Assembly: GCA_051362555.1 (NCBI GenBank)
Contig: CM120640.1
Coordinates: forward strand, 13,702,001 to 13,766,000
From: Lingula anatina
Taxonomy: Eukaryota; Animalia; Brachiopoda
DNA: 64,000 nt
Direction of reading: 5' to 3'
Below are positions 1,309-54,431 of the stretch, one piece after another. Each line of letters opens with the position of its first letter. Positions within the stretch are counted from its first letter, which is position 1. A model generated the notes under the pieces. The model saw nothing but the letters and a program-made list of their open reading frames with translations, was not told the origin of the DNA and searched no databases. A program made the translations under genes and the position numbers.

Positions 1309-2739
1309 TCACGGGTGATTTGTTAATATTGTGACATAAACAGCAACAGTTATGAGCAAGAACAGAAACAAGAACACACGATCTATGACCATGGCAACTA
1401 TACGCCATTCCATTTCTGATTGTTCATTGAAAGCCTCTCTGGTGCTTTGCGCGAACGCCAGTGCGCGTTGATCTTCTGTGTCATTACGATCCAAATAAAT
1501 GTTTTTCTGGTTTTGATTAGCTGTCGTTTCCACAGAATGTGCATCCTTATTGAAATTGACCAACATGAAGTTTTCTGCGCCAGCATGGTCTTTGGAGGCA
1601 ACGTTCGCATCCTAGATTCATTAAAGAATTGTTAATGATAGAAACTCATCAATTGTGTTACTTTATGCTCTATACAGAAATTACAAATGGGCAGAAAGAT
1701 AACAAAATAGGTCGGAATTGTTTTCTTATCTAAGACGCCTTTGAAATATTTAACGAAAGTGATGTAATAAAGCTATAGTTACGTAAACACAGTTATACAT
1801 ACTTTTAGCTTCCCAAAATCAGCACCAAAAAGGGGAAATAATCGGCATGATTGTCTATGCAAAAAAAAGCACATGTTCAATAAGTACCTTGATTTGTAAA
1901 GTGTTGTGGCTCAGCCGCAAGGTTTTTAACGCTGCATGGTGCATACACACGATCCTAGATAGAAACAGCGTCAAATGGCGCAACCACCTCGGCACTTTGT
2001 TGTGATGCACACCTCGGAAATGCATGTTCAGAACGATAACAGTCATTGCCAGCGAGGAGGCCAGTAGAAATATTGTGGCTCCAAAGAACATCCCTGCAAT
2101 GAACACGTGTGACAATTGTTTAATAACTTTTCTAATGCATTATTAACACCGTTCTATTACCAACTAATTGATCTTTTGCAATGGCCTATCAATATTAGAT
2201 TTTTAATTTCCTAAAAGACTTGACTGTGCGTGCGATAGAGAGAGAGGGAGAGAAAGAGAAAGAGATACCTACCCACAAGTGGCACGACCTCTGAGGTGGG
2301 AGGCATGCTCTCGGCTATTACTAACAGAAACACTGTCATTGCCAACAATACTGTTACCCCCAATGACACCTTCTCTCCACTTTCTGGAGGCAGATAGAAT
2401 CCCAGCATAGTCACCGCAGTTATGACAATGACCGGGAGAATAAGATTATAGGAGTAATACAGAGCTTTCCTCTTGATTTGGATGTGAAAGGTTACCGAGG
2501 GGTAAGGTTCGGGACAACAAGAATAGACCTTGACGTCACGTTGGATCGGTATACCTGAAATGTAACGATTTTCACATCATACTTGGACCTATTGGAAAGC
2601 ACTTATTTTTTACAAACATATACAGTAGTTAATTCTTCTATTTACAAAAACCAAAGACTCTTAAAGCTCATGTGGGTTAATAATTCTTGTGTGATTCTAT
2701 GTATGTATTTTTTTACGTCTTTCATCCTTGAGGTGTCAA

Positions 2740-15755: not shown

Positions 15756-17519
15756 ATGGTTATAAGGTCCTTTTTTACTGCAGTTGTCATTGTGACAGGT
15801 AGGTAATTGGGGTATCTATGATACAAGCATTTTGAAGGAGTGCAAATGTATGACATTTTGCTGAATAATGAATTAACAACCAGTTAATCGAAATTTCCTT
15901 GAATGTCATATTTTGTTACATTACAAGTGGTGATACAATGACGGACAGATGCCATGGCCACTCGAGAGTGTATGATATCACTTTAAGAGCTCTGTTTGAA
16001 ATACGTGCCCACGTGTGCTTGAAATACGTCGAAGTGTGCTTAAATTTTTCTCTATATAGCCTAATGAACAGAAATAGAAATAGATCATATCATAGACTTA
16101 TAGATTTTATGGTATTCATCACCACGAGCGCCTTTATTAGGTTGTTACTACGAAGAGCTGAAAAGCATGGGACATTGGCAGTAATTTTCAAACCAGTTTA
16201 ACATTATCTAAAAACGTCTTTTTCTTAATTCGTAAGGGTACCAAAATATCGCTTTTCATTACTTTTCGGTATTTCGATAACTCTAAAAATGATTTCAACA
16301 TTTTGATATTAACTCTAGTGTAATCTGCTAAAATGCATACACTTTTAAGGGTATCTGGTGGCGACAACAAAAAGCATAGGGTCGAATCCAGTTGCATTCA
16401 CCACTGTTGCCACATCTACTGTCAGCTCTGCGGTCAGCCATGCTCAGCAGATTAATACTGCACAAAACAATATGACGACGACGACTACGGCCCCTAAAAG
16501 CATCAGTGCAGCGTTAGCTACAACGCCTACACTTATTGCGAATTCCGAGTCACCCACAACGACAAATGTAACCGTAACCAAGAGTGCTTTAGACACTTCT
16601 TCGAGGCCTGCCACAGACAAAAGTTCCAGTGGCACAGAAAACGATAGCGGCACAAAAACGGATCATGTTACAGTGGGGGGCAATCGTTCTATCTCTCTCG
16701 GTACCTCTGAGCCAACAGCTCCATCCCCAGCAGCATCTGGTTGCCCACCAAATGGTACAAGTAACGACCCAAAATGCAAGACTACAAGCACAATCCCCAG
16801 TACAAGTAACGATAACAGAACGGGAACGACCAGCGCTTTGACCAATTTGACACTATTGTCCGAGACCAGAGGAAGACCGACCACGCCGATCGTGAAGAAT
16901 CTCCAGCAACAGCAGTTAACAGATTACGAACACGCTGTTATTGGGTTAGCTGTCACATTGGCGGTTATTATGATCGCTGCAGTCGGCATGGTCATCCACA
17001 AGTGTCGCCGTTCAAACATGTAGGTACCCTGTATTAAATGCTCTTAACTTTAAAAACTAAAACTGAATTAGGGTTTAAACAACCACAGAGAGAGGAAGTA
17101 ACGTTTGTTTAAGATATTGCCTTATAACGCCTATTTGGTTTAAATAATACCAAACAAGTTGGTATGATAAGACACGGTTTACACTGTACATTTAACATCG
17201 TTATATTACAGGTACGGAGTTTCATACCCGGAAGAAGGGTCAAAAAGTCTGCGAGGGCAGTACGCGAGGTAAAAAGTAAAAAAATGTATTTAGCTTTGGC
17301 CATGTTCCTTAAAATTGTTGTTTATACGTGTCAGTTTCCTGATATAATTTTTCAATAACATTTTACTAAAAGCCGCTGATAACTACAGTAACATCAAATT
17401 CTTCACCAATCTATACCAGTCGGTCACCTATGCCTCTTTTTTAATTTTCCCCTTTTTGCCTGGATCAATTCTCTATCGTTCTATTGTTTTGCAGATTCTA
17501 CGATGACACTATACTTTAA
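15756..17519 (+). CDS. Type I single-pass Ser/Thr-rich mucin-like (sialomucin-like) membrane protein, 264 aa
   Basis: Exons 15756-15798 (MVIRSFFTAVVIVT-G, signal peptide), 16350-17019 (S/T-rich ectodomain with several N-x-S/T sequons, two Cys, TM AVIGLAVTLAVIMIAAVGMVI followed by HKCRR), 17212-17268 (YGVSYPEEGSKSLRGQYA), 17495-17519 (RFYDDTIL*). Phases are consistent; total 795 nt. Confidence 0.8.
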
Positions 17520-19425: not shown

Positions 19426-21523
19426 TCAAAGTTCCAGCACTCCTCTCTGTTTCAGCAACACATCTAATTCACATTCTAACTTCTTATTTGTTCCTCTCAA
19501 GCCTTTAATAACATTAGCAGACCACTGAAAATATTCCTGCACTCTGTTCTCTGTCCAGCCATTAGGAGTACATCTGTTAAGGTCACGGAGATTATACAAT
19601 TTATCTGCTAGTTTGACCAGTTTTGCTTTGGGACTAGAGTGTGGGGCATGTTCAATCTGCTGGAGTTTTCGCTCTGCTTTGGGAAGAGATTTGTCATCAG
19701 TCACCTCTCGAACTATATCTGAAAAAAAAAAAAAAAGACAGACAGTTACAGAAAAATCATTCCTGATGTGCTACAAATTCATTGTCAGCTTCATTTCCAC
19801 TGTTCATCTTCACCTACAATATTTTAGATACATGTATACATTAACAAACTTAAACCAAAAATGTATATATTCATAGAACAGGTACACAAGTACAAAACAG
19901 GACAATTATTTAGTATGTCCAGTTTCCCATTCATGTTTAAATTAACCTAACTTCATTGTAAACCAATAAATACAACAAGAATGTCCATCAATAAATTTTC
20001 CATTTAATTTTAAATGACTCAAATTAGTCCCCATTTTAAATCCGTCTTAAGAAATTCAAAAGACACTAAAATAGTTTCCATATGCACCCCCCAACCCTCA
20101 ATGGTTGCGACCCCTATGCCTATACATCCCTTTTCTTGTATCAACAGTTTGTTTAAAATTATCCATTCCAGTATTAATGCAATGACCATCTAAAAGGGTA
20201 AATGGAAGGTTCCACTTTCAAAAAGACAGTGAAATTGGAGCACCACTGGTGAAGGTGGTGCCAGGGGAGCGGAGTCTGACAGTTTCTCAGCTTAAAACAT
20301 ACTTGTGACTGCACTCCCAAAGGTCTCCTCTAGTTCCTTAAATGTAGTTTTTGTGTCTTCCACTGTATCATGCAGTAGAGCAGCCTGAGGAAAAAAATTT
20401 GGATTGATAAACACACATACACACACACTAGGCATTATTATACAGAGAGTAATTTGTTCTTTGTAGGCAGTTACATTAATGCCAAACCATCCATCCATTC
20501 CAATAAAGGAGCTTGATAGGTTACTAAGACATAATAAAACACTATTATTTCCTTTTTAAAGCCCACAATTCAAAATTCACTTTAGTTTTCAATGATACTT
20601 GTATTTCATATATTAGAAAATTTCATTCACTTTGGTAGCATGGGTATTTTATTTCAGTCAAAGAGCATGTACCTAATTGTCACAGTCAGTATTAACGTAC
20701 CTGTATAACATCTAAGTCTGTTATATCAGCTTCTTCTGTGAGAATGTAAGCCACCCCTAAAATGCAAATTATCCATACAATTTATAATTTAATATAATAT
20801 AACTTAATTGAAGGGAAACCAACTCTACATAGAAGATTCAACATTCCACAATAAATACATTGTATTAACCACATACAGAAATATTATAAATTCCATTTTA
20901 CTACCAGGGGGTTATGACAATTACTCTGTTTGCTGTCATACCATGTGGAACTTCAAAGGCTACCCTTCAAAAACCACACTTAAAAAAACCCAATCAACTA
21001 ACTCTGAATGTTGGAATGGATTAACCACTGGAAATGGGTAAATGAAAATATAGTCATTTACCCCTCATTTTCAAAAAACGACCCCCCCCCCTTTGAAATT
21101 GCTCGCTACGGGCCTGTAATTAATCATTTTTTTGCAGCACATCTAATCATACTTATAATATTCAAAGAATATGCAGATCAATAGTACAAAAGTAATGTCA
21201 GCTTTCATTACAATTTTGCATCATTCATTACATCTCTGATCGTGTCGACACAGTAATTATTTACCACGGTGGGCTGACTTTAAAAAGAATGCTGACTAAA
21301 CATACATGTAATGCCATCTTGCTCTTATTCACTGTTAGAGTGTAGATCTATTAATTTTAATCACGTCTGCGATGAAATGCAGGCGTAGATCTGACTACTG
21401 GTACAAACCTATGGGATGGTTGATGTATGGGGTTTGCTCTCGGTCCTTTCGTCTTTGTTTACTGTGTTTGAGAGCGGCAAAATTAGTACATTTGATCAAA
21501 ATCTGTGCTGGTACCCGATCCAT
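19426..21523 (-). CDS. HDDC3: HD-domain hydrolase MESH1 (metazoan SpoT homolog; ppGpp/NADPH phosphatase), 181 aa
   Basis: Exons 21523-21409, 20756-20701, 20384-20303, 19718-19426; 546 nt. Motifs FAALKHSKQRRKD..TPYINHPIGVAYIL, AALLHDTVEDT, VREVTDDKSLPKAERK, KLVKLADKLYNLRDL. Confidence 0.95.
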
Positions 21524-27120: not shown

Positions 27121-40450
<13,330 letters not shown>

Positions 40451-40881
40451 ATGAATTAGTAGGCTTGATATAAAGGCAAGGATATTCTTAGTGTCAGTTG
40501 AAATATTATGTGTTGCTTTGTGGTGGTAAAAGGATTGTAAAGCCTAGATTATAGAACTTGTGGGATCATTTAAAGTGTAAATAACAAGTAGCACAATTTT
40601 TGAATTCATTAAATACAGTAGATAATAAGAAATTAAATGTTTTAGCACAACCATGTAACAAATTGATATTTGCTTATTGCTTCAAAGTAGCTATGTGACT
40701 TTCATTTATTTTCATTATCTTTTATGGCTATATTTATGTTTTACTAACTAACCCTCAGGAATGTGTTTTCCGCAGTGGTTGCATTCTCCTTGCACTGCTT
40801 TTACTTGAGAATGTGAATAGTGGTGTAATTACAAAGAAGAATGTAGATAAAAGTTGCATAATACCTACATTTGTTTTTTAG

Positions 40882-41177
40882 GACTAAAAAATAAAGAGGT
40901 AATGAAACAAGTGCAGCTTGGGTACAGAATGCCCAAACCTACCTCTCCGGAGTTCACTGTACCGAATGCCTTGTACGACAAGATGCTGGAGTGCTGGAAG
41001 GCGGACCCTGAAGAAAGACCATCATTTCATGAGCTCTTTGCTTATTTCACAGACTATGCTATTGACATGGGGGAAAACGAAAATGGTGATGAGGAATACA
41101 GAGGTCCTGAGGATTTTGGACATGATTACGCTGAAACCCCGGAGGAGGAGGAGATAAATTTGGGGCTAACTTACTGA
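40882..41177 (+). CDS. Src-family kinase 1, alternative distal last exon 10b (545-aa isoform) with divergent acidic tail
   Basis: Acceptor ttgttttttag|GA is phase-compatible with the exon 9 donor (CCA G|gt). Reads GLKNKEVMKQVQLGYRMPKPTSPEFTVPNALYDKMLECWKADPEERPSFHELFAYFTDYAIDMGENENGDEEYRGPEDFGHDYAETPEEEEINLGLTY*. Open frame, clearly paralogous to exon 10a. Confidence 0.82.
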
Positions 41178-44100
41178 ATAGTAGTCAATATGCCTTTATT
41201 GCTGACTGTGGTAAGCAAATGCCACTAAATAACATGTAATGTGTGTTATACCCTGTCTTGACAGTTGTGAAAACTTGCCTTGCATGTATTTTGCCTCTGT
41301 ACAATGCATTGCTGAACAATTACAATTATTGCATTCACAATACAATATTCAATTAATAACCATTTGGAGTTTAGACAAATGAGGAACACCATGATTTTCT
41401 GAGGTATCCCATTGAAGTTTTGCTACTTGAGACAAATAAATTCATAATTTATTGATATTGTTTTGAGTATCCTGTGGTCATTTGAAGTGGCAAAAGAGGC
41501 AGGTCTTTTTATCAAAATACATCAATTTTGTTATTGATAAACATGATACATATTACATGAATTGCCATGCTTAAAGCAATTTAAACTGCATAGGGTACAA
41601 CTAGCATTTAAGTTTGGCGCAGGGTCTTAAAATTTATTTCATCTATCTAAAGAACATTAAAATGTGTTTGGATAAAGGGTCTTGAATGATTGGAAAAGAC
41701 TCCATTAATGGGAAGACTACATTGATATTGGGAGTGAAGCAAATGTTTAATAAAGGCAATCAAAATCTGTTTAAACCTTGGTGCCAGTAAATTGCCCCCT
41801 TTATCTGTATAAATAGCTTGTGAGTAATTGCTTTGAAGAACGGGTTAATTGCATTTGAGTGAGCTTTCAAAATGTAAAATTGTTTCTAAGATTAGATATT
41901 ATTGCGGTAACCGCTCTGATGTTGCTTGAATGTTAGTTTCATTTCATGTCCAATGCATTGAAAATGAAAGCTAAACCCTATCTTTAGTAGTTACTTGTAA
42001 CTTTTCACATTAATTTGGTAAAATAAATCATTTTACGTGCAAATGCAGCTGGATTAAATTTAAAAGCAAGGCATTATTTGTGTTCTTTCCACATGTTTCA
42101 GATAAAAGTTTTGGAGATGCCAGATTTTTGAATGTTTGTTGTTATTTTGATAAAAACAGTCCACATTTTGCTGAACTTTCAGAAGTTAAAAGCAGCCTTA
42201 TAATTCTTATTTGGTATGCTAGAAACAGTGATAGAGGTTTCCCAAAACTGATATAAGGCAACTGTTATTTCTGTGGTACATAAGGCACGGTTTTCTAAAG
42301 GTGCACTGTAGGGATAACAGAGCAGTTTTTCTTTGCGTTTATGCATAATAGCAAACAGTAAGAAGTACAAGAATGCATGTTTTTATATAACATTGACAAA
42401 ATAGATTTGATAGAATGCCAACAGGAATAATGAAGGCAAGTAGGGATAGTTGTATCATATTTACATCCTGTATCCACTGATTTGAACTGTGTATTTCTTT
42501 CTACTTAAAGCTTTTGTATAGTATTTTGTACATAATAAATTTTATGAACTCTGCTTGAGTAAAATGTTGAGAGAATATTGACATTTAGTTACCTATGTAT
42601 AAACATATATCTATATCATTTCTTATATATTTTATATATTATAAACAATATTATCCACTTGTAATGTTTGTTAGTATTTGTAATGCATTGTACAAAAGTG
42701 ACACTTTAACATTGCATATACATATATTTACATGGAATATGTTTTGTTAATGCCTCACAAAAAAATCTTCAACATTGTATTGCACTTCTGTGTGTGTTGT
42801 CCTGAAGACAGGAGTGTGTGAGGAAACTGTCTGTCCAAAACTTCTTAATAGCAAACTGGACTATCACCTGGATAAGCCATTGCTTTAACACTGGCTGAAC
42901 ATACACATTTTTGTTATAGCTAATGTAGTATCTGTGAATTTTGTTTTCTGTATTGTGGACCATTTGTGTGTTTGTTTGGTACAAATAACTTACGGAGTTT
43001 TTCTGGTAATTTGTGGTACAATTAAGAAAGATTGCAGTGGAGATGGAGTAGTTCTTGTGCTGCTCTGCAGCATGCTGGCAGTACTTACTTCTGTGTAAAT
43101 GTGGCATTGTGAATTGAAGTGTCTAGAAAGTAACACTGTCCGTCAGCATTGTCAAAATTACTTATTTTGCTGCAGTTGGTATAATTTTATTGTATATTTA
43201 TGTTAAATATACAGATACATGTACTTGTAGTATTGATTTTACGCAAGTAGGTTGGAATGGAGAGGGCTCAAGAAATTAGTTTCTTGTAAGCTTTCTTATC
43301 ATTGTTTGTAAAAGTCATTTCTGTTTTCACCAAGTGCAATTGGAACTGTTCATAAATCCTAAATTAGCTGCAGCTTTATTCATTGAGAAATCCTATCCGA
43401 GCTGTTTTGATTTTTCATGTTTCTATGTAAAAGAAAAATTTTTTTGTAAATTGCATATTTTGAAAATTTGATTGTGGTCTTACAGTATACAGACACATGC
43501 ATGAAACTGTCTTATGTTTTTATGTTCAAAGTAATAAATAGATGCAAAGTATTATTGTACATACTCTTCTATACAGGATAAACATATTATTCAGGAACAT
43601 TGTATACTCATACAGTCAAGTTTCTGGTCTCTTCCCTAGACCACATCATTTGTTTATCTTTCCAGATTTAACTCCAAAATACATTGACTGGCTTTTATTG
43701 AAAGTTTTTAATAGCAGTAGGAGGAACAAATACCTTTTTGATATCCTGGATTATTCACCAATAGATGAAGGTCATATAACTAGATGAAATTTAAGAATCA
43801 CTGTTTGTGTATGTAATGCCAAGTCTAATGACAAAAAAAAAAAAAAAAAAAAAAAAACAAATTAATTAATTAATAAAAAAAATTAAAAAATTAAAAAAAA
43901 TAAAAAAAAAATTGAAATTTGTTTTGAAACTGAGTTTAGAATGATTTTAGATGTCCCTGCAGAGGGCCCTTCTTACTCATATATTGTCACCCAAATTTAT
44001 AAGCCATAGCACAATGTTTGATTAATCTGGATTGTAACATCACATAGATAATAACTGAGATTACTTGAAGGATGACAAGATGTCTCTTTTCTGATGAAGT

Positions 44101-46179: not shown

Positions 46180-53660
<7,481 letters not shown>

Positions 53661-54222
53661 TACATTGATACATTACATACAGGTGCTGATCGGATGTTCT
53701 CAAGTCCTGTGTTGTCCAGAGCTATAATGATTGTTGCTTTTGTTCTGCTTGCTATGTTTAGTCTTTGTAGGTTGCTGTATGCATTTTTTTCTTTTGATTC
53801 TATCTATGTTTCTAGGCTGGTGCTTGATGGTGTTTATTGGTCTTTTTTGCTTCATTTTATTGCTTTTAATAGGTATTTTAATAATCTAATCTGTTGTATT
53901 TGTAGCTGAACTGTGCTTGGATTTAACCCATGCTTAAAGATTCTGAGTGAAACAAAAATATTAATATGCTGCAGCTCATTATTTTATATGCAATGCTTCT
54001 AATTCTTTTGTAGAATATGTTTTGTGAAGTTAAATACTAAGAAATTATTTTAGCATTGATTCTTTATGTCAGTTATGTTTGCATATTTTTCACAAGTAAC
54101 TTGTATATACTGTTGCATGAGTATATCATGAAAAATCGAGTGTGATTGAGTAAGTTATATTATTACATGTTTATATGTACAACTGTATATATTATTAAAT
54201 TTTTTGGTATATATAATTATAG

Positions 54223-54431
54223 GTATGAGTAACCGAGATGTCCTAGATCAAATTGAGCGAGGCTACCGTATGCCCAAGCCACCAAAATGCCCAGACAGCC
54301 TGTATGAAACCATGCTGCTGTGCTGGAAATCTAATGAAGAGGAAAGACCTACATTTGAGTTCCTGCAGGGCCATTTTGATGACTTTTTCATCTCCACTGA
54401 GCCCAGCTACAAGGAAGCTGACAATGACTAG
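54223..54431 (+). CDS. Src-family kinase 2, alternative distal last exon 10b
   Basis: Acceptor ataattatag|GT. Reads [69 protein letters not shown]. Same length (209 nt) and phase as exon 10a. Confidence 0.85.

What the first reader, a model, noticed from the sequence alone, without database searches (positions are those of the whole stretch)
40882..41177. Src-1 exon 10b replaces the canonical Csk tail with a long acidic, multi-tyrosine tail
Seen: 10a ends [17 protein letters not shown], with Tyr 8 residues after the DY. 10b ends TDYAIDMGENENGDEEYRGPEDFGHDYAETPEEEEINLGLTY: no TEPxY motif, first Tyr 14 residues after the DY, 25 extra residues and three tail Tyr. GDEEY resembles the acidic context preferred by Src-type kinases and this enzyme's own loop (DDGEEENVY). 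Established: loss of the tail Tyr deregulates v-Src. Inference: 10b may be a Csk-insensitive or constitutively active isoform, or an autophosphorylated SH2-docking tail.
Basis: partly seen in the sequence, partly recalled or inferred. Interest (0 to 1): 0.72.

Follow-up and report, generated by a model that had tools for sequence, protein, structure and literature searches.

The report
Minor Src isoform with displaced brake
In the brachiopod Lingula, a Src kinase gene has a second copy of its last exon that is mostly read as untranslated message but enters the coding frame in about one splice in ten, giving a variant whose off-switch tyrosine is likely shifted out of place and which is predicted to be harder for the Csk kinase to shut off, although the exon varies so freely between populations that it may matter little.

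Summary
The gene is the Lingula anatina Src1-type kinase, and both isoforms are already in RefSeq (10b = XP_013406797.1). RNA reads from 8 runs change the picture: 111 of 123 exon-9 junctions go to 10a, whose stop is followed 25 nt later by a GC-AG intron into 10b, so 10b is mostly 3'UTR; 12 of 123 skip 10a and code the acidic tail. The tail tyrosine is probably displaced, not lost: its context YRGPED matches what follows Tyr527 in orthologs (0 of 5000 shuffles), so the 25 extra residues are likely a 6-residue insertion plus a 19-residue extension. The Csk-docking Tyr511 is Glu, so weaker Csk control is plausible but untested. In a divergent population 10b has 13 replacement/4 silent changes (10a+exon 9: 1/6; p=0.009) and the last Tyr is His, which argues against a conserved three-tyrosine dock. 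The duplicated-last-exon layout recurs in neighbouring Src-2 and in 8 of 80 other loci, nearly always with Tyr527 in register; 10b is the outlier. Verdict: real, minor, weakly constrained variant; moderate interest.

The parts
27121..27295 (+). Src-1 first coding exon (MGNC..., predicted myristoylation/palmitoylation start)
   Evidence: matches the N-terminus of P0206
38053..38230 (+). Src-1 exon 8: [11 protein letters not shown] and acidic activation loop with the autophosphorylation-site Tyr
   Evidence: (joints 37782-38053 and 38230-38552)
38552..38683 (+). Src-1 exon 9, last constitutive exon; its phase-1 donor goes to 10a or 10b
40230..40475 (+). Exon 10a: stop-containing cassette; canonical tail with Tyr527, stop 40448-40450, then 25 nt of UTR up to a GC donor
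   Evidence: 111 reads exon 9-10a and 105 reads 10a-10b in 8 of 8 runs
40476..40881 (+). GC-AG intron behind the 10a stop (AAG|GCAAGG ... TTTTAG); a minor GT donor at 40458|40459 has 3 reads in one run
   Evidence: the tool reports the joint as 40473-40880 with 3 letters of play, I placed it 2 bases right at AG|GC
40882..41177 (+). Exon 10b: duplicated last exon; 3'UTR in the major mRNA, coding when 10a is skipped
   Evidence: 12 direct junction reads in 4 of 8 runs; RefSeq X1 and X3 end with it
41070..41087 (+). Six codons (GENENG), the likely insertion that moves the tail Tyr from 527 to 533; probably duplicated again in the divergent population
   Evidence: inference; 'goes back 18' joint in 23 reads of X7, X8, X9 with short sides of 21-25 letters
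41097..41099 (+). First tail Tyr (Src numbering 533), context YRGPED, likely homologue of Tyr527
   Evidence: no variant listed
41172..41174 (+). Last tail Tyr; His in the divergent population
   Evidence: 41172 T>C in 38 of 38, 47 of 47 and 25 of 25 reads of X7, X8, X9
41178..43560 (+). Shared long 3'UTR; read depth ends near 43585, AATAAA at 43533 (end approximate)
53452..53682 (+). Src-2 first copy of the last exon (Tyr527 in register, stop 53658-53660, candidate donor CAG|GT 22 nt later)
   Evidence: splicing not tested with reads
54223..54431 (+). Src-2 second copy of the last exon (Tyr527 in register)
   Evidence: splicing not tested with reads

Best explanation
Exon 10b is a tandem duplicate of the last exon of the Lingula Src1-type kinase that is read as 3'UTR behind the 10a stop in most transcripts and enters the coding frame in about one splice in ten, giving a minor, fast-changing isoform predicted to fold and likely to be only weakly held off by Csk. 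Shown: the two splice paths and their ratio, the displaced first Tyr (533), His/Glu/Asp at the docking positions 510/511/518, and the excess of replacement changes. Inferred: the first Tyr is the old Tyr527 pushed out by a 6-residue insertion, with 19 residues added past the old stop; the junction 25 nt behind the 10a stop is too close to trigger nonsense-mediated decay (recalled 50-55 nt rule); skipping 10a swaps helices G-I and the tail, so Csk docking and tail register are both degraded and basal activity would be higher; selection keeps the frame and the fold but not the tail sequence.
For: Junction counts 111 / 12 / 105 over 8 runs from 3 studies, Wilson 95% interval 5.7-16% for skipping. 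Tyr at 527 in 97 of 103 parsable SFK clusters and 41 of 42 of the subfamily; position 511 is never acidic in those 42. YRGPED identical to the post-Tyr527 residues of a gastropod ortholog, 0 of 5000 tail shuffles reach the score. 13 replacement/4 silent changes in 10b against 1/6 in 10a plus exon 9, Fisher p=0.009; not different from neutral, p=0.76. All three length variants in 10b keep the frame (18, 6, 3 nt), while 0 of 11 indels listed in the 3'UTR are multiples of three; none of the changes hits a column invariant in alignment A1. AlphaFold: 10b C-lobe pLDDT 95-98, as for 10a. Docking triad from PMC10016382 passages.
Against: No protein or activity data. Tissues of the runs are unknown and only 6-30% of each run was read, so a tissue with high 10b use would be missed. 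The variant tables are truncated (154 and 20 rows not shown) and counts are small; the kinase-core part of 10b alone gives 6/4 (ratio about 0.37, from site counts), i.e. some purifying selection. 10a itself lacks Glu510 (Ala, as in 19 of 42 orthologs), so the vertebrate docking rule may not carry over. Asp518 is kept in 10b and a flexible acidic linker might still reach Csk and the SH2 domain. Two of the three in-frame indels lie in a GAG run where slippage gives multiples of three anyway. The YRGPED match was noticed before it was tested.
Confidence: 0.5

Rival explanations
1. A regulated splicing switch: in a particular tissue or stage 10a is skipped on purpose to make a Csk-resistant, switched-on Src, and the rapid change of 10b is adaptive.
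For: The layout (stop cassette, donor within 50 nt of the stop, second copy) recurs in Src-2 and other animals, two of them as spliced mRNAs. The open frame survived a long branch (0.9 against 0.13 for 10a). Tail 7 replacement/0 silent changes. Skipping 10 of 73 in study P3 against 2 of 50 in P1+P2 (p=0.12).
Against: No run has skipping above 2 of 7 junction reads; 7/0 is not a significant excess over neutral; in other animals the second copy keeps Tyr527 in register, so the general switch is not a Csk-escape device; no 10b-like tail among the best 150 of 667 HMMER hits.
Confidence: 0.2
2. 10b is regulated normally: Csk phosphorylates Tyr533, the longer linker still reaches the SH2 domain, and the isoform differs only in substrate docking or partners.
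For: Tyr533 with its YRGPED context is likely the homologous site; the Tyr is unchanged in the divergent population; Asp518 kept; Csk tolerates changes around the Tyr (PMC10016382); a 2-residue shift occurs in L055.
Against: Register 527 is kept in 97 of 103 clusters; Tyr511 is Glu; the residue after Tyr533 and the linker length vary between populations; recalled, not read: insertions of 2-4 residues at Src 518 partly activate c-Src (Cobb et al. 1991).
Confidence: 0.15
3. 10b is a decaying copy: skipping of 10a is splicing leak and the product is irrelevant.
For: Overall replacement/silent ratio 0.79, indistinguishable from neutral; absent in 4 of 8 runs; no ortholog with this tail found.
Against: At 45% identity to 10a the exon still has no stop or frameshift and keeps all 9 invariant columns; the frame is intact in both populations; about 10% skipping is well above typical splicing noise (general knowledge).
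Confidence: 0.15

Closest known systems
RefSeq XP_013406797.1 (isoform X1), XP_013406798/9.1 (X2), XP_013406800.1 (X3), 'tyrosine-protein kinase SRK2-like', Lingula anatina
   Same: Identical proteins; X1 and X3 end in 10b, X2 in 10a.
   Different: Automatic annotation only; it does not say that X1 is the minor form or what the tail does.
Aplysia Src tyrosine kinase 1 and the mollusc/annelid/bryozoan Src1 clade
   Same: Same clade in the kinase tree, 100/100; HRDLRAAN and the insert after GYRM.
   Different: 41 of 42 subfamily clusters have Tyr527 in register; none of the isoform sets listed showed an alternative last exon.
Spongilla srk1/srk4 (Ottilie et al. 1992, PMID 1378585)
   Same: Recalled: one Src-related gene with tandem, alternatively spliced C-terminal exons. 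Only the reference line was seen.
   Different: Text not held; whether a tail Tyr is displaced or the second exon serves as UTR there is unknown to me.
Tandem duplicated exon substitutions (PMC9741552), e.g. FYN exon 7 pair; 77 of 236 human events swap C-termini
   Same: Homologous exons in tandem giving alternative protein ends (passages).
   Different: Here both exons sit in the major mRNA; exclusivity is only at protein level, and the swap covers the Csk-docking helix and tail.
v-Src and SRMS (kinases without the C-terminal regulatory Tyr)
   Same: Predicted weaker Csk control (PMC3492796 passages; SRMS abstract starts).
   Different: 10b keeps tail tyrosines, the first likely the displaced Tyr527; it is a minor splice form, not a separate gene.

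Membership tests
Src-family kinase | N-terminal Gly2 acylation signal | tested here: met
   MGNC start at 27121; acylation itself not tested
Src-family kinase | SH3-SH2-kinase order and fold | tested here: met
   Pfam list of P0206; model of the 10b isoform matches c-Src 1FMK, rmsd 2.1 A, 53% identity
Src-family kinase | Activation-loop tyrosine | tested here: met
   ENVY in exon 8, aligned with orthologs
Src-family kinase | Regulatory Tyr at position 527 (10a isoform) | tested here: met
Src-family kinase | Regulatory Tyr at position 527 (10b isoform) | tested here: not met
   first Tyr at 533, likely displaced homologue
Src-family kinase | Csk docking residues Glu510/Tyr511/Asp518 | tested here: inconclusive
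   10b His/Glu/Asp, 10a Ala/Tyr/Asp; 510 is variable in the subfamily
Src-family kinase | Inhibition by Csk | not testable with these tools
   needs a kinase assay
Spiralian Src1 (Aplysia Src1) clade | Kinase-domain tree placement | tested here: met
   13-row clade, 100/100
Tandem duplicated exon substitution | Homologous tandem exons in the same phase, both used in coding frame | tested here: met
Tandem duplicated exon substitution | Mutually exclusive in the mRNA | tested here: not met
   105 reads join the 10a UTR to 10b
v-Src/SRMS-like tail-less kinase | No C-terminal regulatory tyrosine | tested here: not met
   three tail Tyr, the first in a Tyr527-like context

The most novel reading that the evidence does not exclude
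Many invertebrate Src genes carry a hidden switch, a stop-containing last exon followed by a spare copy parked in the 3'UTR, that swaps the whole Csk- and substrate-docking end of the kinase by one skipping event; Lingula has turned the spare copy into a natural, splice-controlled Csk-escape (v-Src-like) isoform used in a specific tissue or stage.
Probability: 0.2. Interest if true: 0.72.

Novelty: new variant of a known kind. Interest (0 to 1): 0.4.

Why it matters
Tight Csk control of Src kinases is held to be a general feature of animals (PMC3492796 passages). A natural splice form that loosens it would be an exception and a clean two-isoform test of how tail register and helix-I docking set Csk recognition. 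The wider layout, a second last exon kept in the 3'UTR and seen here in both Lingula Src genes and several other animals, means automatic annotations can present the minor form as the main isoform (here X1), and it offers an unstudied way to retune Src C-termini. The low use and weak constraint of 10b limit how much biology this one exon is likely to carry.

Tried and rejected
No whole genome is held. The run search listed no indexed RNA holder; raw-read runs with the same species label were laid instead. Word-index search with 10b among longer proteins found nothing at E<=0.001 (weak, it also missed the identical RefSeq X1). HMMER over 1.84 billion representatives: 667 hits, the best 150 read, none with a 10b-like tail; two unnamed ORFs with non-canonical tails (P0060, P0082) fall in an unresolved group with 10b in a 59-column tree, probably long-branch attraction, so not counted as orthologs. 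That tree cannot say whether 10b arose from the Src-1 or an older duplication; the shared 4-residue insert of 10a and 10b points to Src-1. AlphaFold is uninformative on tail docking: both tails have pLDDT <50, and the match to closed Src is expected from training. No complex prediction was run. Rfam: 0 matches in 36000-58000. Rejected: separate poly(A) sites for 10a and 10b as the main mechanism (depth falls to near 0 in the intron and 105 reads splice on); homology of Tyr533 to the terminal Tyr of 10a (also position 533; not excluded, but the downstream YRGPED context favours displaced Tyr527). Positive selection on the tail: not shown (7/0). Literature searches listed no paper on duplicated last exons of spiralian Src genes; the library lacks most subscription journals, and Ottilie 1992, Levinson 2008 and Cobb 1991 were not held. 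Earlier scan notes gave nothing relevant.

Full report
Observation. The window holds two tandem Src-family genes on the + strand. For the first, exon 9 ends at 38683 in phase 1 and is followed by two homologous terminal exons, 10a (40230, 72 codons, stop 40448-40450) and 10b (40882, 97 codons, stop 41175-41177). A constitutive exon matches a Lingula anatina RefSeq protein at 100%; isoform X2 (520 aa) ends in 10a, and X1 (545 aa) and X3 end in 10b. In a kinase-domain tree of 23 rows (one of 24 intended rows, Macrostomum, could not be parsed and was left out) Src-1 falls in a 100/100 clade with Aplysia Src1 and mollusc, annelid and bryozoan proteins, and Src-2 in a separate 99/98 clade.

How it is spliced. 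Raw reads of 8 of the 9 listed RNA runs (3 studies, 6-30% of each run read) were laid on the locus. Exon 9 joins 10a in 111 reads (8 of 8 runs) and 10b directly in 12 reads (4 of 8 runs): 12 of 123, 9.8%, Wilson interval 5.7-16%. In 105 reads (8 of 8 runs) the 10a 3'UTR is spliced to the 10b acceptor from AAG|GCAAGG, 25 nt behind the 10a stop, and 3 more reads use a GT donor at 40458. So 10a is a stop-containing cassette; 10b and a shared UTR to about 43560 are in nearly all mRNAs, and 10b is translated only when 10a is skipped. That the 25-nt distance avoids nonsense-mediated decay is inferred from the recalled 50-55 nt rule. In one search the direct joint was flagged 'between: not known'; it was a clean GT..AG joint with up to 71 letters on the short side. 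The tissues are unknown.

What the tail is. Among 120 clusters, 103 had a parsable terminal RPxF motif (17 dropped); 97 of these have their first tail Tyr at Src position 527, as do 41 of 42 in the Src-1 subfamily, 10a included. 10b has it at 533. The residues after it, RGPEDF, match what follows Tyr527 in orthologs: YRGPED is identical in a gastropod protein, the closest relative ends YRVPDKF, and 0 of 5000 shuffles of the 10b tail reach the score against 40 ortholog tails (the test followed the observation). The simplest history is a 6-residue insertion before the old Tyr527 and a 19-residue extension past the old end, which adds up to the 25 extra residues. A 'goes back 18' joint at 41070-41087 in 23 reads of X7-X9 suggests the same six codons are duplicated again in that population (short sides, 21-25 letters).

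Csk. Passages of a review (PMC10016382) report that Csk still phosphorylates Src when the six residues round the tail Tyr are Ala, and needs Glu510, Tyr511 and Asp518. The missing TEPxY is therefore not the argument. 10b has His/Glu/Asp; position 511 is Tyr, Phe, Ser, His or Thr and never acidic in 42 subfamily members. Against this, 10a also lacks Glu510, like 19 of 42. Together with the shifted register (recalled and not read: small insertions at residue 518 partly activate c-Src, Cobb et al. 1991), weaker Csk control is likely but unshown. AlphaFold folds the 10b C-lobe at pLDDT 95-98 like 10a; both tails are below 50, so it says nothing on docking.

Constraint. Runs X7-X9 carry the same species label but differ from the window at many fixed sites; L. 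anatina is reported to diverge among localities (PMC8146825, abstract). In the listed rows, 10b has 13 replacement and 4 silent changes, 10a plus exon 9 have 1 and 6 (Fisher p=0.009); 10b's ratio is 0.79 and not different from neutral (p=0.76). The tables were truncated (154 and 20 rows hidden). The core shows 6/4 (about 0.37) and no change in the 9 invariant columns; the tail shows 7/0, the last Tyr becomes His, the residues after the first and second Tyr change, and the Glu run varies by 3 or 6 nt. The first two Tyr have no listed variant. All three length variants keep the frame, against 0 of 11 listed UTR indels. The exon is thus kept open and foldable but its tail is not conserved even at this short distance, which argues against a fixed three-tyrosine docking code.

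The layout is general, the odd tail is not. Src-2 in this window also has two last-exon copies, both with Tyr527, and a candidate donor 22 nt after the first stop (not tested with reads). Of 80 metagenome loci fetched with a last-exon alignment, 8 hold two copies; many of the 80 are short, cDNA-like or redundant, so this is no prevalence estimate, and L010/L015 are close relatives. L018 and L055 are spliced mRNAs in which copy 2 begins directly behind the stop of copy 1, the same arrangement as the major Lingula mRNA; L024 and L073 are of the insert-bearing Src-1 type. A donor-like site lies within 50 nt of the stop in 6 of 8 genomic first copies, against 1 of 10 second copies and 7 of 40 single copies (p=0.002; the rule was set with the window's sites in view). 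Of the 20 copies, 18 have Tyr527, one has 529 and 10b has 533.

Comparison. C-terminal swaps by tandem duplicated exons are a known class (77 of 236 human events; FYN has an internal pair; PMC9741552 passages), and I recall alternative C-terminal exons in sponge srk1/srk4 (only the reference line seen). Searches listed no paper on this layout in spiralian Src genes or on this isoform; subscription journals are mostly absent from the library, and no supplements were read.

Verdict. A real, already annotated, minor splice form with a displaced regulatory Tyr and degraded Csk docking, under weak constraint: new variant of a known kind, interest 0.4. The bolder reading, a regulated Csk-escape switch built on a widespread hidden spare exon, is not excluded (0.2) and is directly testable by tissue-resolved junction counts and a two-isoform Csk assay.

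Noticed in passing
window 46181-54431 (+): Second Src-family gene (Src-2) directly downstream, also with two last-exon copies, both canonical; candidate donor 22 nt after the first stop.
   Followed up: partly
L018:497-915, L055:1920-2338: Spliced Src mRNAs of other animals with a second last-exon copy directly behind the first stop; the L055 copy has its Tyr shifted to 529 and Arg at 510.
   Followed up: partly
L073:3639-4131: Second last-exon copy of a Src-1-type gene appears to be split by an extra intron.
   Followed up: no
window 38168-38230: Src-1 has an acidic insertion in the activation loop; similar insertions of varying length occur in many subfamily members.
   Followed up: partly
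window 39273-39319 and 43093-43137: 47-nt direct repeat (87%) shared by intron 9 and the 3'UTR; small repeats at about 36800-36900 and 39967-40016 draw reads from elsewhere.
   Followed up: no
window 2214-2576 (-), 19429-19770 (-), 16349-17020 (+): Exons that look, from recalled motifs only, like a nicotinic acetylcholine receptor subunit, an HDDC3/MESH1-like HD hydrolase, and a Ser/Thr-rich single-pass membrane protein.
   Followed up: no
proteins P0060, P0082 (unnamed ENA ORFs): Src-like last exons with long non-canonical tails lacking Tyr527; genomic context could not be fetched.
   Followed up: partly
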